Source: a virus
Lineage: Duplodnaviria > Caudoviricetes
Reading direction: 5' to 3' (one strand)
IMG/VR virus record: IMGVR_UViG_3300033741_000039
Location: 1 to 53,629 of that record
Length of the DNA stretch: 53,629 nt
Below, one piece after another: positions 1,120 to 31,572 of this stretch. The notes below the pieces were generated by a model. It searched no databases. It was not told where the DNA came from and worked only from the letters and a program-made list of their open reading frames with translations. The translations under genes and the position numbers were made by a program. The first letter of the stretch is position 1. The number at the start of each line of letters is the position of its first letter.

Positions 1120-1285
1120 CCTCCCCCGCACACACGACCTAAAAAGCAATAAAAATCCAATAATGATTTTACGACCTGTTTTCAGTGGGTTGCGGAGTTG
1201 ATTATTGGATTATTGCTTATTGCCTCGCGCGACCCGCGCGCAGGCCTCCGCCGGCGCACGTGTAAATCCAATAATCCAATAAAAA
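1120..1285. repeat. AT-rich iteron-like region A (AATCCAATAA / AAGCAATAA repeats)
   Basis: Several direct and inverted CAATAA-core copies in a non-coding AT-rich island; related to 26500-26945. Confidence 0.75.
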
Positions 1286-1342
1286 TGGGCCGACCTCGTG
1301 AGAGGCCGACCCTAGGTTTAGTGAGGCAGTGACAGAGAACTC

Positions 1343-1371
1343 AGTATAGGGGCGGAGCGGGGCAAACAAAA
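1343..1371 (-). promoter_or_regulatory. Putative leftward promoter TTTTGT-N17-TATACT (helicase)
   Basis: Same hexamers and spacing as 26391-26419; upstream of a leftward gene. Confidence 0.55.
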
Positions 1372-1426
1372 GCACTAACAGTTTCGGTCACTTGCACGTT
1401 TGTTTGAATAATCGTCACGAGGGGAC

Positions 1427-1455
1427 TTTACATATGTTGAGGGTTGTCCTACATT
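1427..1455 (+). promoter_or_regulatory. Sigma70-like early promoter TTTACA-N17-TACATT
   Basis: Near-consensus -35/-10 with a 17-nt spacer upstream of the early operon. Confidence 0.65.
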
Positions 1456-1685
1456 GATTGTACGAGAGACGGACGGGACGGGTAGCCCAAGCATAACTAC
1501 CCCGCTGACAGCGAAGCCCGAATACGGGCACGGTAGTTGGTACGACGCGGCCCGCAGGCTTGAACCACGCGCGTTATACCCAACTGGTTTCCGGCAGCGT
1601 ACACCCAAAGGTTAGTAACCACAGGCCCCGCACGCGTTAGCGTAGCGGGGCCTCTGACTACAAACCCCAACCAAGGAGTAACACC

Positions 1686-1982
1686 ATGGACAACTACAAA
1701 ACACGCAGCGACGACGAAGCCAAGACCCTTGAGCTTCTGGACGGATTTGAGGCCACAGACGACCTCTACTCAACAATATTCTGTGTCAAGAAGGCCATCC
1801 GGGCGATGTGGGCGCTGCAGTTTACTCCGGAGAGGGTCAACAAAGTTGGGTCTGCTCTCGGAGGTCTCACAGAACTGGACGCCGGAAACGTCCAAACCGT
1901 ACTGACCCGGATGACTCGGGCCAAGGTTCTCCGCAGTAAGGTGTCTCGAGCAGGCAAGCGAGTCTACGAAGTGAATTTTTAA
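1686..1982 (+). CDS. Hypothetical early protein (possible winged helix)
   Basis: Strong RBS AAGGAG; basic C-terminus LTRMTRAKVLRSKVSRAGKRVYEV. Confidence 0.7.
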   Translation: MDNYKTRSDDEAKTLELLDGFEATDDLYSTIFCVKKAIRAMWALQFTPERVNKVGSALGGLTELDAGNVQTVLTRMTRAKVLRSKVSRAGKRVYEVNF

Positions 1983-2045
1983 GTCGAAACCGCCCAGCTC
2001 GGGCGGTCTGCGGGATGAGCCCTACCCGCACTGATGTGACAGGGC
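1983..2045 (+). ncRNA. Type II hammerhead ribozyme 1 (pseudoknotted, A9U core variant)
   Basis: GUC-GAAA, stem III ACCGCCC/GGGCGGU, C17 at 2008, stem I UGCGGG/CCCGCA, CUGAUGU-GAC; loop-I GCCCU complementary to 3' AGGGC. Confidence 0.85.
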
Positions 2046-2068
2046 AACACACAACTGGAGTAATACCA

Positions 2069-2707
2069 ATGACCTACACAATCACACAGATGGCCACCCT
2101 CTACAACGAGATCACCGGGTCGGACGTCAAGAAGTTCGCCAGCAAGTCCAAGGGTGAGGCCCGCCTCGACGCAGCCTGCGACGAGCGCAACCTTGTCTGG
2201 GCCGACGCCGAGGACGGGTCGGGCCTCTACACATACACCCCTGACGACGTCATGGACGACATGCCTCCCGCTGACTCGGACGCCTGGAACGAGAACAGGG
2301 TTGCTAAGGAGTACACCCCTGAGGAGCTGGAGCTACTCGGCCAGTTCGGTCTCGGTGCTGACCACGACACAGCCCTGTGCCCACACTGCGGCATCAACCA
2401 CTGCGACAACGGACACAGCATGCACGGCGACGGTGCTGAGCATGAGACCTCCAAGTGGGCCTGCCTGGGCTGCAACGGTGAGTGGGGCGAGCTGATCGCC
2501 AAGCGAGCCACCAGCACTCGGGCTGTCCACGCCGACGACGCCAAGATCACCAAGGTCGAGGCCAACCCCAAGCGTGAGGGGACTAAGGCCCACGCCCGCT
2601 TCGCTCTCTACAAGAAGGGCATGACGGTCCGTGAGGCCCTGGAGGCCGGGGTCACCCGCCAGGACCTGCGCTGGGACACCGAGCGCAAGCTGGTCGTCAT
2701 CGGCTAA
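2069..2707 (+). CDS. Early protein with Zn ribbon and C-terminal NPK..G(T/S)K domain (paralog 1)
   Basis: RBS GGAG; CPHC..CLGC; C-terminal NPKREGTKAHARFALYKKGMTV domain shared with the 4759 and 19681 genes. Confidence 0.85.
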   Translation: MTYTITQMATLYNEITGSDVKKFASKSKGEARLDAACDERNLVWADAEDGSGLYTYTPDDVMDDMPPADSDAWNENRVAKEYTPEELELLGQFGLGADHDTALCPHCGINHCDNGHSMHGDGAEHETSKWACLGCNGEWGELIAKRATSTRAVHADDAKITKVEANPKREGTKAHARFALYKKGMTVREALEAGVTRQDLRWDTERKLVVIG

Positions 2708-2774
2708 CTCAACTTTCCACCGCCCCGCTGTCCACGTAGGGTAGCGGGGCCAACCCACAGAATGGAGTAAGACC

Positions 2775-2987
2775 ATGACCGAACGACAGGCGGCGATAAT
2801 CGCCAACAAGGTATACAAGCTGATCAACTGCTACCCGATGCGGGTTGACCCTGCCCTGGCGAGCAGGACTCTTGACAAGCTGTCCCCGTACATGAGCGAG
2901 GCACAGATTTGCAAGCACCTGGACTTCCTGAACGCCTACGGAGACATGGTGCGCCTCTGGGCACACCAGCAGGAGGCGGCGTCATGA
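2775..2987 (+). CDS. Hypothetical protein
   Basis: GGAGTAA RBS; operon context. Confidence 0.7.
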   Translation: MTERQAAIIANKVYKLINCYPMRVDPALASRTLDKLSPYMSEAQICKHLDFLNAYGDMVRLWAHQQEAAS

Positions 2988-3238
2988 GCCACCAGCAGAT
3001 GAGCGACGAGCATCAGGCGCTGGCCCAGGAGGCCATAGCCAGGAAGTTCAGCGAGCACTCAACCAACTACAGCGTCGGGGTCATCTCGCAGGAGCTGAGC
3101 CACACGCACAGGTCGGGAGTGATCAGCTGGATGTCCACCGTCATCGTCACAGCCGACGGAACCCGCTACGACGTCCACCTCAGCAGGGTGGGCGAGAAGA
3201 TCATGATCACCGACATCGTCGATGACAGGTACAACTGA
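2984..3238 (+). CDS. Hypothetical protein
   Basis: AGGAGG RBS; ATGA overlap with the upstream gene. Confidence 0.7.
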   Translation: MSHQQMSDEHQALAQEAIARKFSEHSTNYSVGVISQELSHTHRSGVISWMSTVIVTADGTRYDVHLSRVGEKIMITDIVDDRYN

Positions 3239-3254
3239 ACCAAGGAGTAACACC

Positions 3255-3455
3255 ATGCCACAGATAACAGCGGGCCTTCGGGCCACAGCCGACGCGGACC
3301 AGGTGGTCCGCACCATACAGCGGACCGACCCGCTGGCCACCTGTCTCGTGAAGGGAGCCACGGTAATCTGCGACACCGAGCGCCCCGAGATAGTCATGCG
3401 CCAGTATCCTGCGCTGGTCAGCCTCAGCCGCTGGGTCAACATCAACATGGGCTAG
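3255..3455 (+). CDS. Hypothetical protein
   Basis: AACCAAGGAGTAACACCATG leader. Confidence 0.65.
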   Translation: MPQITAGLRATADADQVVRTIQRTDPLATCLVKGATVICDTERPEIVMRQYPALVSLSRWVNINMG

Positions 3456-3479
3456 TCGCCCGAAACTAGGAGAACAGAC

Positions 3480-4436
3480 ATGCCACTCGACAACGCAAAC
3501 AACTACCTGGAGATGATCCAGGCCCACGGCTTCCAGGCCCCCAAGAAGGACCTGGGACTCGCAACCAGCAAGACGGTCTTCCCGATAGCGGAGATGGCCC
3601 TCGGGGCACACGCTGCCTCAGACAACCCTGAGCTCCCACATGCAGCAGATGCGTGTGCCACCTCAGAGACCCACAAGGCCATAGTCAGGACGGACACCAA
3701 CGAGTTCGTCGGGGTCGTCTCGTCCAAGTACAGGCCTCTCCGCAACGAGGACCTGTTCGGGACAATCGAGGCGGCGCTGAACGAGGCCATCCCGGAGGAG
3801 ATGTTCCGGGACGTACAGGTCCGCGACCGCGTCAGCGGAGGCGGCTCCTGGAGCCAGCGTGAGTATGTGCTGCCCGCCTATGCTGAGGAGCTGAAGAACT
3901 CCCAGTTCGAGACGCGGGTCGGCCTGCGCATCATCGCCTGGAACAGCTATGACGGGTCGGCCTCGGCGGGCCTCATGACTGGCCTCATCGACTTCTACTG
4001 CACCAACGGCATGATCGTCGGGAACCAGATCACCCGTGAGCTGAAGCGCCACAGCACCCGACTGACCCCGGAGGACTTCCTCCCCCGCCTAACCAAGAAC
4101 CTCAGCACCATCCACGAGGAGATTGACGGCATCCGGGGGATGATGCACACCCCTCTGAACTCGGACGCTGCGCTCGAGTTTCTCGAGAAGAACCTGTCGG
4201 CCAAGCGAGCGGCTGAGATGTTCACCCGCATGCAGCAAGAGGTTGAGGTGCGGGGGAGTAACGTGTTCGCGCTACACTCCGCGCTGACCTACTACGCCTC
4301 ACACGACAGTGAGAGCTTCGCCACCCGAGCGCCGTTGCACTCCAGCCGCACAGCCCGCATGCTGCGCGGTCGTGAGGACGAGGTACTCCGGCTGGTCCGC
4401 ACCCCTGAGTTCCAGGGTATGCTGGTGGCGGCATGA
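3480..4436 (+). CDS. DUF932-family protein
   Basis: AIVRTDTNEFVGVVSSKYRPLRN, NSYDGS, FYCTNGMI, KRHS motifs typical of the family. Confidence 0.8.
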   Translation: MPLDNANNYLEMIQAHGFQAPKKDLGLATSKTVFPIAEMALGAHAASDNPELPHAADACATSETHKAIVRTDTNEFVGVVSSKYRPLRNEDLFGTIEAALNEAIPEEMFRDVQVRDRVSGGGSWSQREYVLPAYAEELKNSQFETRVGLRIIAWNSYDGSASAGLMTGLIDFYCTNGMIVGNQITRELKRHSTRLTPEDFLPRLTKNLSTIHEEIDGIRGMMHTPLNSDAALEFLEKNLSAKRAAEMFTRMQQEVEVRGSNVFALHSALTYYASHDSESFATRAPLHSSRTARMLRGREDEVLRLVRTPEFQGMLVAA

Positions 4437-4675
4437 GCTCCGCATACTATGTCCTCAGTAAGGCAATGGGTGTCAGGTTCCTGAATGTTGACAGGAACAC
4501 AGGAGCACTCTACTGGACCTCATCTCCGCACGGAGCCACACTGTTCACCAGCAAGGCAATGGCAGAGGAGACAGTTAAGTCTGGGTTGGGCCACCTGATA
4601 GAGTACAAGGTGTGTCCAACTCGTGTCTGGGAACCCAATGTGATCAGAGGCAACCAGATACAGAGAATCACATAG
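4433..4675 (+). CDS. Hypothetical protein
   Basis: ATGA overlap; stop codon abuts hammerhead 2. Confidence 0.65.
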   Translation: MSSAYYVLSKAMGVRFLNVDRNTGALYWTSSPHGATLFTSKAMAEETVKSGLGHLIEYKVCPTRVWEPNVIRGNQIQRIT

Positions 4676-4738
4676 TCGAAACACCCACCCCGGTGGGTGT
4701 CTGCGGGATGAGCCCTACCCGCACTGATGTGACAGGGC
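4675..4738 (+). ncRNA. Type II hammerhead ribozyme 2 (pseudoknotted, A9U core variant)
   Basis: Same core, stem I and pseudoknot as copy 1; stem III differs but is fully paired (ACACCCAC/GUGGGUGU); C17 at 4701. Confidence 0.85.
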
Positions 4739-4758
4739 AACAACCAAGGAGTAACACC

Positions 4759-5253
4759 ATGCTGACCAAGTACCAACCGAACTTTGCCTCGCTGACACCA
4801 GACGAGGCGGCTCACGCTGCTGCGTCACTCTGCCGTGCAACTGACCTTGTCATCGACACAGAGTCTGGCATCAGCGGGAACCAGCTGTTCAGTATCTGCG
4901 GTGCGGAGAATATCGGACAGGCACAGGTCGTGATGTCCATGGCCCGCGACCCCAGCCACATTGGCGTCGTCTGCCTCGAGAAGCTGGTGGGCACAACGCT
5001 GCGTCGCCCCGAGCCAGAGAAGAAGGCCCGAGCGCCCCGCGCCGCGCCCAAGGGTAACGCGGTCCGTCGCTCTGACCCTCGGGTCATCGCTCACGTCGAG
5101 CCGAACCCCAAGAAGTCGGGCAGCAAGTCCCACGCCCGGTACGAGCACTATCAGGTCGGCATGACTGTCGACCAGTTCGTGGCTGCGGGTGGGAGCATGG
5201 ACGACGTGCGCCACGACGTGGGTAAGGGTTTCGTCCGGCTGGAGGAGAAGTGA
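4759..5253 (+). CDS. Early protein with C-terminal NPK..G(T/S)K domain (paralog 2)
   Basis: AAGGAG RBS; NPKKSGSKSHARYEHYQVGMTV. Confidence 0.85.
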   Translation: MLTKYQPNFASLTPDEAAHAAASLCRATDLVIDTESGISGNQLFSICGAENIGQAQVVMSMARDPSHIGVVCLEKLVGTTLRRPEPEKKARAPRAAPKGNAVRRSDPRVIAHVEPNPKKSGSKSHARYEHYQVGMTVDQFVAAGGSMDDVRHDVGKGFVRLEEK

Positions 5254-5552
5254 TGGTACATGTCAAGAACACCGATCTAGCGGAGAGGGCTGTGATGACA
5301 GCTGAGGACCCAGACACAGGGATGCCTCTATCAACCTCCATGCTGTACCGGGTCTGCAAGAGGGACCCAATGCTCTTTGGTGAGGCAACGCGCATCATGA
5401 AGGAGATGTACCTCGCTGGGCAGCGCAACCTCTGCCCGAGCCACTTCGACCACGGCAGCTGGGACTGCGATGACAGCCCCACCGGGAAGTGCGTCTACAC
5501 CAGCGACCACGACGACTGCATATTCTGCCACGGACCAGAGGAGAGAAAGTGA
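5250..5552 (+). CDS. Hypothetical Cys-rich protein
   Basis: C-terminal WDCDDSPTGKCVY..CIFCHGPEERK; operon coupling. Confidence 0.7.
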   Translation: MMVHVKNTDLAERAVMTAEDPDTGMPLSTSMLYRVCKRDPMLFGEATRIMKEMYLAGQRNLCPSHFDHGSWDCDDSPTGKCVYTSDHDDCIFCHGPEERK

Positions 5553-5636
5553 TGCGCGACGCCATGGAGTTCGTGGTGGGGGTGGCGTTCGTCGCCATCC
5601 TCATCGGTGGTGTAATGGTCCTGGGAGGGTAGGGCG

Positions 5637-5894
5637 GTGGCACTGAGACTTGAGAAGAGCGATCAGGTGCGGGTCAACACTGACCCACAGCGCCGCTGCT
5701 ACAATGGTGCTCACTTCAGCTCGGAGCTGAGGTGGTCCGCCTGGGATTGGCTGCAGTGGGACGTGCCTCCGGACAGGGTGGCCGAGCGCCTGAAGTTCTG
5801 GCGCGATCTGAGTACCTACTCCGTCAGCGTTGGAGGCAGTCCATCTAGATATCGTGTCAGAGACACAGAGACAGACAAGGAGATTGAGTCATGA
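5637..5894 (+). CDS. Hypothetical protein
   Basis: ORF track; operon context. Confidence 0.6.
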   Translation: MALRLEKSDQVRVNTDPQRRCYNGAHFSSELRWSAWDWLQWDVPPDRVAERLKFWRDLSTYSVSVGGSPSRYRVRDTETDKEIES

Positions 5895-6139
5895 TCAACA
5901 CAGACACACTGCAGTGCCATCAGGTTCCAGCCCGCGAGGTCGAGCCAACCGAGGAGATGATCGACTGGCTGAACTCGGCCCCGATCGAGTGGTCCGGCGA
6001 CGAGGAGGGTGTCGTCCTCCACCAGTGCGAGGACGTACTGGCATCGCCCGGCGACTGGATATGCTGCTCACAGGGCGACTGGTTCGTCCTGCGGGCGGGT
6101 GACATGGAGGCGATCCAGAACCATCCCAGGCTACCCTAG
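5891..6139 (+). CDS. Hypothetical protein
   Basis: AAGGAG RBS, ATGA overlap; last gene before the strand switch. Confidence 0.65.
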   Translation: MINTDTLQCHQVPAREVEPTEEMIDWLNSAPIEWSGDEEGVVLHQCEDVLASPGDWICCSQGDWFVLRAGDMEAIQNHPRLP

Positions 6140-6254
6140 CCGCGCCGCGCCCCTCTCAGGGACTCCAGCGCGTCCTCCAGCTCCTCCAGTACGTGACAGA
6201 CGTACTTAGGCCCGCCCCGGTATCCCCGGCGCGGGCCTTTTCTCGTCTGGAGAG

Positions 6255-6689
6255 TCAGTTTCCTGTCAGATGGTTCCGGACTGCGTCCCAGTCCCAGCGG
6301 GCGGGGCCTCCAGGCCAGACGCCCAGGAAGTCCACTCCCTCGGCTCTCAGACCGCCCTCGCGGAGCAGGGGCGCGAGCCTGCCCTCCGCCAGCCACAGCT
6401 CGTCGACCGCTGCTCCCCGGCGCGGGCCACCCTCGTTCTGCCTTCGGATGGCGATGAATGTGCGCCCGCCTCTCATGTACCTCGTCTGGTGCCATGACGA
6501 CTGCTCCGCTGTGAGTCCAACCGCCCACGCCTCGGTCCACTTGAACTCGACCCACAGCTCAATCCCGCCAGCGATGCAGGCGTTGCTGTCCGGGATGCCC
6601 TGCCCGGTGCCTCCTGTCTCGATGGCCTGCCAGTGTACCCCGCGCCGCAGCTTGTCGTGGAACAGGGGGCGCAGCCCTCCGTCGATCAC
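6255..6689 (-). CDS. VRR-NUC / PD-(D/E)xK nuclease (Holliday junction resolvase-like)
   Basis: GIPD..WVEFK..LTAEQSSWH..RGG motif set. Confidence 0.8.
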   Translation of the reverse strand: MIDGGLRPLFHDKLRRGVHWQAIETGGTGQGIPDSNACIAGGIELWVEFKWTEAWAVGLTAEQSSWHQTRYMRGGRTFIAIRRQNEGGPRRGAAVDELWLAEGRLAPLLREGGLRAEGVDFLGVWPGGPARWDWDAVRNHLTGN

Positions 6690-19680: not shown

Positions 19681-20370
19681 TTAACCGACCTTGATGAACT
19701 TCTTCTCGACATCGTTCTTGATGTCGGGGCTGGTGAGACCGCCCTCGAGCGCCTGATCCACAGTCATGCCGTTCTTGTAGACAGCGAATCGCTCGGCGGA
19801 CTTGGTGCCTGCGCGCTTGGGGTTGTGGTCCTTGCCGTATGGCTTGCCATCCTTGTCGGTCAGCAGGGTGATCTTGGCGTCGCGCTTGAAGCCTGCGACC
19901 AGTGCTGGTGCCTCTGGGGCCTTGTCGGCTGCGGGCGCGGTGTTTGCTGGTGTGTTGGTCATCGTTCTTCTCTCCTTGAGTGTCAGTTCTCTGTCCCGGG
20001 AAATGGTTTCACAGATGACAGCCGGGTCCGTCGGGGGTAGCTCGGTCATCGCGACCATTCTCTTCCATATCGAGGGGATGTAGTGCTGGATGACGTTCCG
20101 ACCACCAGCCTCCCGCTCCCTGATCAGCACCTCAGACCTGAAGTCCTCGTCGCCCAGGGTGCGCAGCAGATCGGGCAGCTCGAGCCGGGTCCACTGACGC
20201 ATGATATGGTCCTCGTCGACGCAGATGACGTCCCCGTACTGGATCAGGGGATGGCGGTCAGCCTCCTCGAATGAGGAGAACCTGAACCAGTCCCCTAGTC
20301 CTGCGCGGGTCACAGCGACGACCCAAGATGTGCTACCTTGATCAACCATGAGCCAAGTGTCCGCGCACAT
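19681..20370 (-). CDS. Protein with C-terminal NPK..G(T/S)K domain (paralog 3); probable internal start at 19962
   Basis: NPKRAGTKSAERFAVYKNGMTV; internal AAGGAG RBS before MTNTPA. Confidence 0.75.
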   Translation of the reverse strand: MCADTWLMVDQGSTSWVVAVTRAGLGDWFRFSSFEEADRHPLIQYGDVICVDEDHIMRQWTRLELPDLLRTLGDEDFRSEVLIREREAGGRNVIQHYIPSIWKRMVAMTELPPTDPAVICETISRDRELTLKERRTMTNTPANTAPAADKAPEAPALVAGFKRDAKITLLTDKDGKPYGKDHNPKRAGTKSAERFAVYKNGMTVDQALEGGLTSPDIKNDVEKKFIKVG

Positions 20371-29778: not shown

Positions 29779-31572
29779 ATGCAACTTCTCGACTCCCTCG
29801 TGAACCTCGTCTCCAGACTGGGCACATCCTCCGACAAGGGTACTCACTCTGAGTACGTTGATGAGATACTCACGGCGCAGCAGATCATCACCGCCTACCG
29901 TGTCTCCGGAGTGGTGCGGACCATAGTCGACCGCCCAGCGCGGGAGGCTGTCCGCGCATGGCGTGAGTGGCAGGCTACCGCTGACGAAATCAGTGCCATT
30001 GAGCTGGTCGAGAAGAAGCTGGGCCTGCGCATCAAGTGGCGCAACAGCATTCGCCGCGCCCGCCTCATGGGCGGTGGCGCCATCTACATCGGCACTGGAG
30101 ACCAGAACCTGGAGCTGCCCCTCGACCCGTTCAAGATGAAGAAGGGCGGGCTGCAGTTCCTTACCGTGCTCTCACGCAACCAGCTGACCGCTGGACCCAT
30201 GGTCACAGACCCCTCGCTGGAGGGGTTCGGTCAGCCTGAGTACTTCACTCTGGCCCGGTACTCCGGCTCACCGAGGGTGCACCCCACGCGGCTGGCCATC
30301 TTCCGTGGACCCGACGTCCCGGACGAGGACATCACGCAGGCCATGGGGTACTGGGGCGACTCAGTGCTGAACGCGGTCCTGAGTGCGGTCAAGCGTGTCG
30401 ACAGCACCGCAGGCAACATGGCCTCGCTCGTGTTCGAGGCGAAGATCGACGTCATCAAGATTCCCGGCCTGCTGGACCGCCTTGCTGGTCCGGACGGAGA
30501 CAAGTTCGAGCGGCTGGTGCAGCGGCGCGTTGCCCTGAGCAACACAGCCAAGAGCTCAGTCAACGCTCTGCTCATGGACACCAGCGAGGAGTTCGAGCAG
30601 CGTGAGTACAGCTTCACTGGCCTGCCTCAGGTGGCGGAGACCATGATGACTCTGGTCAGTGCGGAGACGGGCATCCCCGCCACTCTGCTCTGGGGCAAGA
30701 GTCCTGATGGGATGAACGCCACTGGTGAGTCCGATCGGGACAACTGGGAGGACCTCATCTCGTCCGTCCAGGAGGAGAGCGCTGAGGCGGCCTCCATTCT
30801 CGACCAGTGCATCATCGCGTCGGCCCTCGGGTCTGTCCCCGATGAGGTTCACTTCAACTGGCGTCCGCTGCAGCAGATGACGTCTGAGGAGCGGGCCGAG
30901 GTCGGCAGCAAGAACAGCGAGATGCTGACCAGGATCGTTGAGATGGGCCTGATCCCCGAGGAGGCCATGCAGCGTGTGGTGGTCAACGTGATGACTGAGT
31001 CCGGAGCCATGCCCGGCTTCGAGGGCGCAGTCGCGGACTACTACGAGGAGCACCCCGACGAGGAGGGTGACCTTGTGGGTCTGGCTGAGGAGCCTGAGGA
31101 GGAGCCGAAGCTCAGGGTCGTTGGCGACATGGCTCCGCGCACCATGTACGTGCGCCGCGACGTTCTCAACGCTGAGGACATCCTGGCCCACTACCGCGAG
31201 CAGGGCATCACTGGCCTGGAGCCAGCCGAGGAGCTGCACGTCACGATCATCTACAGCAGGACGCCTGTCGACTGGATGACAATGGGAGAGACCTGGGACG
31301 ACGCGATCGAGATACGGGAGGGTGGTCCTAGGGCCAGCGACCTGTTCGGACTGGAGCGTGACTATCTGGTCCTCCAGTTCGCGTCCAGCTCGCTCGAGTG
31401 GCGTCACTCGGACATGCTGCGCCTCGGTGCCTCGTCCGATCACCCGAAGTACCAGCCGCACATCACCATTGCCCATGGCCCGGACGTCGCCTATCAGGAC
31501 CCGGAGAAGATTGAGCCGTACAGGGGCATCATCAGGCTTGGCCCGGAGATATTCGAGCCAGTCAAGGAGTAG
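29779..31572 (+). CDS. DUF1073-type portal protein fused to a C-terminal Acb1-like 2H phosphodiesterase
   Basis: Portal motifs RARLMGG, VHPTRL, WGDSVL, GIPATLLWGKSPDGMNATGESD; C-terminal LHVTII..PHITIA (two HxT motifs). Confidence 0.88.
   Translation: MQLLDSLVNLVSRLGTSSDKGTHSEYVDEILTAQQIITAYRVSGVVRTIVDRPAREAVRAWREWQATADEISAIELVEKKLGLRIKWRNSIRRARLMGGGAIYIGTGDQNLELPLDPFKMKKGGLQFLTVLSRNQLTAGPMVTDPSLEGFGQPEYFTLARYSGSPRVHPTRLAIFRGPDVPDEDITQAMGYWGDSVLNAVLSAVKRVDSTAGNMASLVFEAKIDVIKIPGLLDRLAGPDGDKFERLVQRRVALSNTAKSSVNALLMDTSEEFEQREYSFTGLPQVAETMMTLVSAETGIPATLLWGKSPDGMNATGESDRDNWEDLISSVQEESAEAASILDQCIIASALGSVPDEVHFNWRPLQQMTSEERAEVGSKNSEMLTRIVEMGLIPEEAMQRVVVNVMTESGAMPGFEGAVADYYEEHPDEEGDLVGLAEEPEEEPKLRVVGDMAPRTMYVRRDVLNAEDILAHYREQGITGLEPAEELHVTIIYSRTPVDWMTMGETWDDAIEIREGGPRASDLFGLERDYLVLQFASSSLEWRHSDMLRLGASSDHPKYQPHITIAHGPDVAYQDPEKIEPYRGIIRLGPEIFEPVKE

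What the first reader, a model, noticed from the sequence alone, without database searches (positions are those of the whole stretch)
1983..2045. Type II hammerhead ribozyme with variant core (CUGAUGU) inside the early operon
Seen: directly after the stop of 1686-1982 come GUC-GAAA, a 7-bp stem III, a GUC cleavage triplet (C2008), a 6-bp stem I and CUGAUGU-GAC closing a 3-bp stem II. Loop-I GCCCU is complementary to the 3' tail AGGGC, forming a pseudoknot. Known: this is the pseudoknotted type II hammerhead architecture; the canonical core is CUGANGA, so position 9 is A->U. Inferred: self-cleavage splits the polycistron and leaves the downstream mRNA with a 5'-OH and a structured end about 60 nt before the ATG.
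Basis: partly seen in the sequence, partly recalled or inferred. Interest (0 to 1): 0.88.

Follow-up and report, generated by a model that had tools for sequence, protein, structure and literature searches.

The report
Variant hammerhead ribozyme between phage genes
A self-cutting RNA motif (a hammerhead ribozyme) sits between two genes of an uncultured phage from brine samples, in two copies that both carry a rare change at one normally fixed core letter; the same change turns up in other phages with the fold intact, so it probably still works, though cutting has not been tested.

Summary
Bases 1982-2048 match Rfam Hammerhead_II (RF02276) at 38.1 bits (cut-off 37). A second copy at 4674-4741 (33.4 bits) has the same CUGAUGU core.

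The window is a tailed phage. T2037 and T4730 are confirmed in contigs of four other runs.

Pseudoknotted type II hammerheads that flank prophage genes have been known since 2011 (PMC3088659), so the element itself is ordinary. The unusual part is U at core position 9.
- In IMG/VR the same pattern with A9 gave more than 120 stretches. With U9 it gave 1 real element. With G9 or C9 it gave none.
- Of 224 model matches, 222 have A9 and 1 has U9.
- Eight well-formed U9 elements (7 distinct sequences) occur in 7 metagenome contigs. Their nearest relatives are A9 elements.

So A9U is rare but recurrent, and it is fixed in every copy in two contigs. Most likely it is an active, perhaps slower or ion-dependent, intercistronic mRNA-processing ribozyme. 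Cleavage is untested. My searches found no paper on hammerhead A9U. First-reader notes of this scan report U9 hammerheads in other genomes.

The parts
1686..1982 (+). Upstream ORF (98 aa, no family hit); its TAA stop (1980-1982) abuts the ribozyme
1983..1985 (+). Stem II, 5' strand (GUC; C1985 = C11.1)
   Evidence: invariant GUC/GAC in alignment A2 (fixed by the search pattern)
1986..1988 (+). Core G12 A13 A14
1989..2007 (+). Stem III hairpin, 7 bp including A15.1-U16.1, loop AGCUC
   Evidence: stem III covaries in the family
2008..2008 (+). C17; predicted cleavage between 2008 and 2009 (not shown experimentally)
   Evidence: alignment; inference from the family's mechanism
2009..2030 (+). Stem I hairpin, 6 bp, 10-nt loop 2015-2024 that holds the pseudoknot strand G2019-U2023
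   Evidence: all 6 of 6 stem I pairs show changes on both sides in the family
2031..2037 (+). Core C3 U4 G5 A6 U7 G8 U9 (CUGAUGU); U2037 replaces the conserved A9
   Evidence: T2037 identical in contigs of runs X10 and X12
2038..2040 (+). Stem II, 3' strand (GAC; G2038 = G10.1)
2041..2045 (+). 3' tail AGGGC, pairs with loop I GCCCU (5-bp pseudoknot)
   Evidence: duplex -7.5 kcal/mol; compensatory change relative to CRP-212
2046..2068 (+). A/C-rich leader with Shine-Dalgarno GGAG (2057-2060) before the ATG at 2069
   Evidence: family median 25 nt from GAC to the next ORF start
2069..2707 (+). Downstream ORF (212 aa, no family hit); its C-terminal ~55 aa are shared with the gene after copy 2
4433..4675 (+). 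ORF (80 aa) whose TAG stop overlaps the start of copy 2
4674..4741 (+). Second type II hammerhead copy. Stem III is 8 bp with a different sequence. C17 = 4701. From the GUC triplet to the tail it is identical to copy 1, including CUGAUGU (4724-4730, U9 = 4730)
   Evidence: T4730 identical in contigs of runs X9 and X11
4759..5253 (+). ORF (164 aa) that starts 25 nt after copy 2

Best explanation
This is a genuine pseudoknot-stabilised type II hammerhead ribozyme, one of two in a + strand block of small phage genes. It lies exactly between the stop codon of one gene and the leader and ribosome-binding site of the next. Once transcribed, stems I and III fold, the 3' tail pairs with loop I, and the RNA cuts itself after C2008 (copy 2: after C4701).

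The upstream message would end in the GC-rich stem III hairpin with a 2',3'-cyclic phosphate. The downstream message would start with a 5'-OH, the stem I hairpin and an unstructured A/C-rich leader 60 nt before its ATG. Each cistron would then have its own ends and stability (inferred).

The U at position 9 replaces the adenine that normally forms the sheared pair holding the general base G12. I read it as a tolerated substitution that leaves the ribozyme active, probably slower than A9 relatives, rather than a knock-out.

Shown: the motif, its homology, its context, and the recurrence of U9. Inferred: cleavage, its rate and its consequences.
For: (1) Family membership by score. RF02276 scores 38.1 bits (GA 37) for copy 1 and 33.4 bits for copy 2.

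(2) Homology. Roseobacter phage CRP-212 has two Hammerhead_II matches (38.4 and 32.1 bits) with the same AGUCGAAAC start, the same stem I (UGCGGG/CCCGCA), a covarying pseudoknot and a similar leader, but with the canonical CUGAUGA core. A DUF932-like gene lies upstream of a hammerhead in both phages.

(3) Structure under selection. In the MAFFT alignment A2 (39 sequences, 9 of them U9), 89.2% of cells are paired against 66.4% in shuffles. The covariation score is 0.578 against 0.147, with 0 of 500 shuffles as high. Slid controls give 29-44% paired.

(4) Context. In 113 of 145 elements an ORF of at least 50 codons ends within 5 nt 5' of the GUC, against 2.9% of 2900 random positions. In 132 of 145 an ORF of at least 50 codons starts within 100 nt, median 25 nt. 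The window's two copies fit both.

(5) U9 is real DNA. There are 0 differences in contigs of four further runs that cover 2037 or 4730.

(6) U9 recurs with the fold intact. There is 1 element in IMG/VR (L005). There are 8 elements (7 distinct sequences) in 7 of 118 metagenome stretches. All 8 are hit by Rfam Hammerhead_II (32.4-53.5 bits, 4 of 8 above GA), and no A9 hammerhead lies in those loci. One more was found by my model (L070:369-433). The same structural filter passed 0 of 13 G9/C9 stretches and 0 of 120 genome contigs U9 stretches.

(7) U9 is fixed in all copies of two contigs: the window 2 of 2, and L235 2 of 2.

(8) Outside their own contig, the nearest relatives of each U9 element are A9 elements. 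This suggests repeated A-to-U changes that persisted.

(9) Mechanistic rationale. A9 forms the sheared pair with G12 in the pseudoknot hammerhead crystal structure (PMC11300833, section 8 read). In the L-platform scheme this 'L-anchor' is natively U in the hairpin ribozyme, with A 24-fold and G/C 73-fold lower (PMC6961537, section 8 read). That matches seeing A and U in nature but not G or C.

(10) Canonical type II hammerheads that flank prophage genes cleave in vitro, and in E. coli when expressed from plasmids (PMC3088659, section 6). Three cleave in D. vulgaris (PMC8782182, passages).
Against: No cleavage data exist for any U9 hammerhead that I could find.

Position 9 is A in 222 of 224 model matches, so it is under strong constraint. 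PMC3088659 (Discussion) states that mutations at most core positions cause drastic loss of activity.

U9 could form a wobble pair with G12. That would lengthen stem II and tie up the general base (my inference).

Copy 2 and 4 of the 8 metagenomic U9 elements score below the Rfam cut-off.

My pattern scans required every other core base to be intact. They therefore cannot show whether U9 elements also accumulate other core damage.

In L070 the U9 copy sits beside two A9 copies and could be a decaying one.

The two window copies are identical from the GUC triplet to the tail. Their shared U9 is therefore one event, not two.
Confidence: 0.55

Rival explanations
1. Catalytically dead hammerhead-derived structure. 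The A9U change abolished cleavage, and the element survives as a folded intergenic spacer, for example a hairpin block that protects or insulates neighbouring cistrons, or simply a not-yet-decayed relic.
For: A9 is conserved in 222 of 224 matches. Published mutational work, as summarised in PMC3088659 (sections 8 and 11), finds most core changes strongly deleterious, and some natural core variants were inactive (legend of Figure S7, section 17). No RNA evidence was available.
Against: U9 elements keep perfect stems I, II and III, the pseudoknot and the exact stop / SD-ATG context in at least 8 contigs. The two window copies have different, perfectly paired stem III sequences. U9 is the only non-A base seen at this position: 0 of 13 G9/C9 pattern matches are hammerhead-shaped. 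That selectivity would not be expected if the position no longer mattered.
Confidence: 0.25
2. Conditional ribozyme. The U9 core is nearly inactive under ordinary conditions and cleaves only at the high Mg2+ or ionic strength of a brine-adapted host, or only when no terminating ribosome covers its 5' strand. The extent of processing would then be regulated.
For: All runs that hold the whole stretch are labelled brine metagenome (several may be the source sample). Core-variant hammerheads from salterns needed 75-300 mM Mg2+ (PMC3088659, sections 9 and 11). The ribozyme starts at the upstream stop codon in 113 of 145 family members, so a terminating ribosome would cover stem II and part of stem III (inference from ribosome footprint size, recalled).
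Against: The stop-codon abutment is shared by the A9 majority, so it is not specific to U9. I did not establish the habitats of the other U9 contigs. The nearest cultured relative by this element infects a marine Rhodobacteraceae strain, not an extreme halophile. The A9 phosphate, not its base, is the known metal ligand (PMC6961537, passages), so a link between base identity and Mg2+ demand is speculative.
Confidence: 0.17
3. Chance resemblance: a GC-rich intergenic hairpin pair that happens to match the hammerhead consensus.
For: The score is only 1.1 bits above the Rfam cut-off. Bare pattern matches without the fold are common in large databases: 110 of 118 metagenome and 120 of 120 genome contigs stretches fail the structural filter.
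Against: There are two copies in one window with the same core and different compensated stem III sequences. There is homology to CRP-212 elements including the leader. The family shows covariation. The same family search matched 0 of 14 control genomes.
Confidence: 0.02

Closest known systems
Pseudoknotted type II hammerhead ribozymes of bacteria and prophages (Rfam RF02276; Perreault et al. 2011, PMC3088659)
   Same: [quoted passage not shown] The GAAA and CUGAUG core segments and the GUC triplet are present. A 4-6 bp pseudoknot joins loop I to the 3' tail. Elements occur in multiples that flank single genes in phage DNA.
   Different: Core position 9 is U, not A, in both copies. That paper's text (sections 6-9, 11 and 17 read) lists the natural variants U3-A8, A6C, an insertion after A6, U13a, U15.1-A16.1, U10.1-U11.1 and saltern insertions, but no A9U. 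Its Figure 5A, Figure S7 and Dataset S1 could not be seen.
The two unannotated Hammerhead_II elements of Roseobacter phage CRP-212 (MZ892988.1, 52395-52460 and 51635-51710, minus strand)
   Same: The 5' AGUCGAAAC, stem I UGCGGG/CCCGCA and GAC-A tail are the same. The leader and SD are similar (82% identity over 72 nt). There is one element after a DUF932-like gene, and two elements less than 1 kb apart.
   Different: CRP-212 has the canonical CUGAUGA core. Its pseudoknot is GGCCU/AGGCC, against GCCCU/AGGGC here. The flanking genes are otherwise unrelated at E below 1e-4.
Natural core-variant hammerheads (A6C in phage Bcep176, which prefers Mn2+, PMC7151607 abstract; U4C in a viroid and saltern HHmeta/HHphage, PMC3088659)
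   Same: A single deviation at a 'strictly conserved' core base in an otherwise intact element with phage context. The published variants retain low or condition-dependent activity.
   Different: A different position. None of those reports concerns position 9, and activity of U9 is untested.
Hairpin ribozyme 'L-anchor' uridine (L-platform/L-scaffold framework, PMC6961537)
   Same: [quoted passage not shown] A is the next best and G/C the worst, which is the same ranking of bases seen at hammerhead position 9 in nature here (A much more than U; G and C absent).
   Different: A different ribozyme class. The analogy is structural reasoning, not a test on a hammerhead.
Synthetic ribozyme insulators such as RiboJ
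   Same: A self-cleaving hammerhead placed in front of a coding sequence to give it a defined 5' end independent of upstream sequence.
   Different: Those are engineered and derived from a satellite RNA hammerhead. This one is natural, type II, and also defines the 3' end of the upstream cistron.

Membership tests
Hammerhead ribozyme type II (Rfam RF02276) | Covariance-model score at or above the curated gathering score (37 bits) | tested here: met
   Copy 1 scores 38.1 bits. Copy 2 scores 33.4 bits, below the cut-off.
Hammerhead ribozyme type II (Rfam RF02276) | Three-way junction with stems I and III closed by loops and stem II open (the type II permutation) | tested here: met
   Read from the sequence. 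The nested fold scores -24.2 kcal/mol. Stems I and III covary in alignment A2.
Hammerhead ribozyme type II (Rfam RF02276) | Conserved core C3 U4 G5 A6 N7 G8 A9 / G12 A13 A14 / A15.1-U16.1 / H17 | tested here: not met
   All positions match except A9, which is U2037 (copy 2: U4730). A9 is A in 222 of 224 family matches. I therefore file it as a core variant of the family, not a consensus member.
Hammerhead ribozyme type II (Rfam RF02276) | G10.1-C11.1 pair closing stem II | tested here: met
   G2038 pairs with C1985.
Hammerhead ribozyme type II (Rfam RF02276) | Pseudoknot between loop I and the tail 3' of stem II (present in most type II members, PMC3088659 section 6) | tested here: met
   5 bp, GCCCU (2019-2023) with AGGGC (2041-2045). 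There is a compensatory change relative to CRP-212. Among 138 family elements, 115 have a pseudoknot of at least 4 bp.
Hammerhead ribozyme type II (Rfam RF02276) | Site-specific self-cleavage 3' of H17 giving 2',3'-cyclic phosphate and 5'-OH ends | not testable with these tools
   No RNA run holds the stretch. Only DNA contigs could be laid.
Phage intercistronic hammerhead cassette (stop codon / ribozyme / leader-SD-ATG) | An upstream ORF ends within 5 nt of stem II and the next ORF starts about 25 nt after it | tested here: met
   Copy 1: stop at 1980-1982, ATG at 2069. Copy 2: stop at 4673-4675, ATG at 4759. Family counts are 113 of 145 and 132 of 145.

The most novel reading that the evidence does not exclude
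U9 hammerheads are a distinct, recurrently evolved functional subclass. Uridine replaces adenine as the anchor of the general base G12, as in the hairpin ribozyme, and gives attenuated or Mg2+/salt-dependent cleavage. Some phages fix this version in all their copies to set how much of a polycistronic message is cut, that is, a tuned rather than all-or-none mRNA processing switch.
Probability: 0.3. Interest if true: 0.6.

Novelty: new variant of a known kind. Interest (0 to 1): 0.42.

Why it matters
The hammerhead core is one of the best studied catalytic RNA sites, and A9 is treated as invariant. A natural A-to-U change that recurs in several phage lineages, keeps all other features and is fixed in every copy of two contigs would have three uses. 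It is a ready-made test of how strictly the A9-G12 pair is needed in tertiary-stabilised hammerheads. It is a test of the proposed equivalence with the hairpin ribozyme's uridine anchor. It is also a possible natural example of rate-tuned ribozymes that control how phage operons are cut into single messages.

Practically, homology searches and descriptors that demand CUGANGA miss or under-score such elements: half of the U9 examples fall below the Rfam cut-off. If U9 turns out to be dead, the elements show instead how long a ribozyme scaffold persists after loss of catalysis.

Tried and rejected
Relatives of the phage. The search for related loci with the downstream protein found no relative in IMG/VR. 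blastn against 50,697 phage records found only the 72-nt ribozyme-plus-leader match in CRP-212. tblastn of all window ORFs against the U9 loci and the closest A9 loci found only the DUF932-like gene in CRP-212. Orthologous positions in close relatives therefore could not be compared.

Expression. No RNA holder was listed for 1600-4900. Only DNA contigs were laid, so there is no information on RNA ends.

Literature on position 9. Searches for hammerhead with A9U, and with A9G, A9C or 'U9 variant', returned no hammerhead paper. The one A9U hit that mentions hammerheads concerns another ribozyme. Two reviews held none of the six A9 phrases I searched for. The eLife pairwise-mutagenesis paper gives hammerhead data only as heat maps that I cannot see. 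The classical mutational tables (reference 27 of PMC3088659) are not in the library. What I say about them comes from PMC3088659's summary.

Alignments. Alignment A1 (U9 only, MAFFT) misaligned one row by a base, so I did not count pairs on it. On A2 the pseudoknot columns are only 63% paired because the pseudoknot register differs between subfamilies. I therefore scored pseudoknots per sequence.

Other registers for the core, with U2037 and G2038 as insertions and A2039 as A9, were rejected. They would destroy the G10.1-C11.1 pair and the GUC/GAC spacing that is fixed in the A9 relatives.

The promoter and terminator scan gave nothing above chance on the + strand between 1686 and 5350.

I did not compare folds of a U9-to-A version, because that would need a changed sequence.

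Limits of the scans. 

Full report
WHAT IS THERE

The sequence at 1982-2050 reads as follows: A, GUC, GAAA, a 7-bp stem III hairpin, GUC, a 6-bp stem I hairpin with a 10-nt loop, CUGAUGU, GAC, AGGGC. C17 is C2008, U9 is U2037, and the tail 2041-2045 is complementary to loop bases 2019-2023.

- Rfam's Hammerhead_II model (RF02276) matches 1982-2048 at 38.1 bits, against a gathering score of 37, and is the only family above threshold in the window.
- A more permissive scan adds a second copy at 4674-4741 (33.4 bits).
- The same family search matched none of 14 control genomes.
- The nested hammerhead fold scores -24.2 kcal/mol, against an MFE of -26.1, before the -7.5 kcal/mol pseudoknot duplex is counted.
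- Copy 2 has an 8-bp stem III of different sequence. From the GUC triplet to the tail it is identical to copy 1, including the U at position 9 (4730).

WHERE IT IS

- The window is a whole IMG/VR virus record of 53.6 kb, estimated 83% complete.
- PHROGs identify terminase, portal, head protease, major head protein and tape measure on the + strand at 28-43 kb. They identify DNA polymerase, helicase and primase on the - strand at 11-25 kb. It is therefore a tailed phage.
- The hammerheads lie in a + strand block of small ORFs (1686 to about 6100). Of ten ORFs tested there, one has a family hit (DUF932, 3480-4436).
- 'Early operon' is a reasonable guess, not a result. A>T skew runs through 1200-6000. 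No terminator-like site lies on the + strand before 5350.
- Every run that holds the full stretch is labelled brine metagenome (some may be the source).
- Contigs from four further runs are letter-identical where they cover the ribozymes. X10 covers 1989-2185, X12 covers 1781-2039, X9 covers 4479-4900 and X11 covers 4630-4778. U9 is therefore in the DNA and is not an assembly slip.

RELATIVES

- The only phage record with DNA similarity is Roseobacter phage CRP-212, over 72 nt that are the 3' half of the ribozyme plus the leader.
- CRP-212 carries two unannotated Hammerhead_II matches about 750 nt apart (38.4 and 32.1 bits). They have the same 5' end and stem I, and the canonical CUGAUGA core.
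- Its pseudoknot is GGCCU/AGGCC where the window has GCCCU/AGGGC, a two-sided change that keeps the pairing.
- A DUF932-like gene precedes a hammerhead in both phages (26% identity, E 9e-25).

THE FAMILY IN IMG/VR

Of these, 136 unique elements pass a strict stem filter.
- A covariance model built from 39 of these sequences finds 224 matches in the 120 loci.
- Stems I and III covary strongly: 89.2% paired against 66.4% in shuffles, covariation score 0.578 against 0.147, 0 of 500 shuffles as high, and 29-44% paired when the partners are slid.

CONTEXT OF THE FAMILY

- In 113 of 145 elements an ORF of at least 50 codons ends within 5 nt 5' of the GUC, against 2.9% of 2900 random positions.
- In 132 of 145 an ORF of at least 50 codons starts within 100 nt, median 25 nt.
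- The window's copies fit both rules. Stops are at 1980-1982 and 4673-4675. ATGs are at 2069 and 4759, preceded by A/C-rich leaders with GGAG.
- This is the arrangement described in 2011 for prophage hammerheads that flank single genes. There, polycistronic transcripts were cleaved in vitro, and in E. coli when expressed from plasmids (PMC3088659, section 6). Three type II hammerheads were later shown to cleave in Desulfovibrio vulgaris (PMC8782182, passages read).
- So the element, its architecture and its likely job are known biology.

THE U AT POSITION 9

The same pattern was scanned with each of the other three bases at position 9.

| Scan | Stretches hit | Hammerhead-shaped |
|---|---|---|
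| IMG/VR, U9 | 3 | 1 (L005, Rfam 35.7 bits) |
| IMG/VR, G9 | 5 | 0 |
| IMG/VR, C9 | 8 | 0 |

- The 8 metagenome elements are 7 distinct sequences, and one equals L005.
- All 8 are hit by Rfam Hammerhead_II at 32.4-53.5 bits, 4 of them above the cut-off. No A9 hammerhead lies in those loci.
- L235, like the window, has two copies that share stem I, core and tail but differ in stem III.
- Among the 224 model matches, position 9 is A in 222, U in 1 and missing in 1 truncated match. The U case is L070:369-433, which sits beside two A9 copies. Other deviations are U4C (3), U3 with A8 (1) and G12U (1).
- Eight of nine U9 elements follow an ORF of at least 50 codons.
- Outside their own contig, the nearest relatives of each U9 element are A9 elements. 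This points to several independent A-to-U changes. The caveat is that the sequences are short and A9 comparators are twenty times more numerous.

HOW IT PROBABLY WORKS

- The L-platform analysis calls this residue the L-anchor. It notes that in the hairpin ribozyme the anchor is natively U, with A 24-fold and G/C 73-fold less active (PMC6961537, section 8).
- That ranking matches what I see at hammerhead position 9 in nature: A dominant, U rare but recurrent, G and C absent.
- I therefore think U9 still positions G12 and the ribozyme cuts, probably more slowly. Pseudoknot hammerheads are fast (more than 1.2 per min at 0.5 mM Mg2+; PMC3088659, section 7), so even a large loss could leave a useful rate.
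- After cleavage, the upstream message would end in the stem III hairpin. The downstream message would begin with a 5'-OH and the stem I hairpin, 60 nt before its ATG. These consequences are inferred.

ALTERNATIVES

- The U9 core may be dead and the scaffold merely persists (0.25).
- It may be conditional on high Mg2+ or salt, as the saltern variants of PMC3088659 were, or on ribosome traffic at the abutting stop codon (0.17).
- Chance is excluded.

AGAINST MY READING

- No cleavage data exist.
- A9 is nearly invariant.
- PMC3088659 summarises earlier work as showing drastic losses for most core mutations.
- U9 could wobble-pair with G12 and sequester it.
- My scans fixed all other core bases, so they cannot reveal co-occurring decay.
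- The window's two U9 copies are one evolutionary event.

NOVELTY

- I found no paper that mentions a hammerhead A9U.
- The variants named in the text of PMC3088659 (sections 8, 9 and 11) do not include it. Its Figure 5A, Figure S7 and Dataset S1 were not visible and may bear on this.
- Unchecked first-reader notes from this scan report CUGAUGU cores in hammerheads of other genomes. I treat these as leads only.
- Verdict: a real hammerhead and an ordinary phage intercistronic ribozyme, carrying a rare, recurrent and apparently undescribed core variant whose activity needs a bench test.

Noticed in passing
window 2069-2707, 4759-5253 and 19681-20370 (-): The two genes that follow the hammerheads share a C-terminal domain of about 55 aa (42% identity, E 4e-12). 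A third gene on the other strand has it too (43% identity, E 2e-15) but no hammerhead was found there. No Pfam or PHROG family matches it.
   Followed up: partly
window 3480-4436; L001 1250-2221: A DUF932-like gene (Pfam E 2.7e-8) is homologous to CRP-212 gp56, which ends at that phage's first hammerhead. In the window one small ORF (4433-4675) lies between the gene and the ribozyme.
   Followed up: partly
window 1625-1685: The first gene of the block (ATG 1686) is preceded by a strong GC hairpin (GGCCCCGC...GCGGGGCC) and then an A/C-rich leader and SD nearly identical to the leader after hammerhead copy 2. A 5' hairpin followed by a CA-rich leader is also what hammerhead cleavage would give the downstream genes.
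   Followed up: no
MZ892988.1 (Roseobacter phage CRP-212) 52395-52460 and 51635-51710, minus strand: Two Hammerhead_II matches lie in intergenic gaps of a cultured phage. The record annotates no RNA feature there.
   Followed up: yes
L034 8158-11327; L035 2151-5085; L084 3616-6709: Some IMG/VR phages carry arrays of about ten type II hammerheads within 3 kb, roughly one per small gene: 9 matches in L034, and 10 each in L035 and L084.
   Followed up: no
L103:3071-3139, L097:10896-10965, L078:1736-1805; L033:7981-8046; L034:8158-8221: Other natural core variants occur in the same family: U4C in three related elements (one also has G10.1 changed to A), the U3/A8 covarying pair in one, and G12 changed to U in one.
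   Followed up: no
window 31069-31572: The C-terminal 167 aa of the portal protein match Pfam Acb1 (anti-CBASS, E 5e-31, 107.7 bits). This is a portal-Acb1 fusion.
   Followed up: partly
window 6196-6315: A sub-threshold match to the eukaryotic snoRNA family SNORA77 (33.2 bits against 42) is surely spurious. It does mark a GC-rich hairpin followed by UUUU on the + strand, which could be a terminator near the end of the small-gene block.
   Followed up: no
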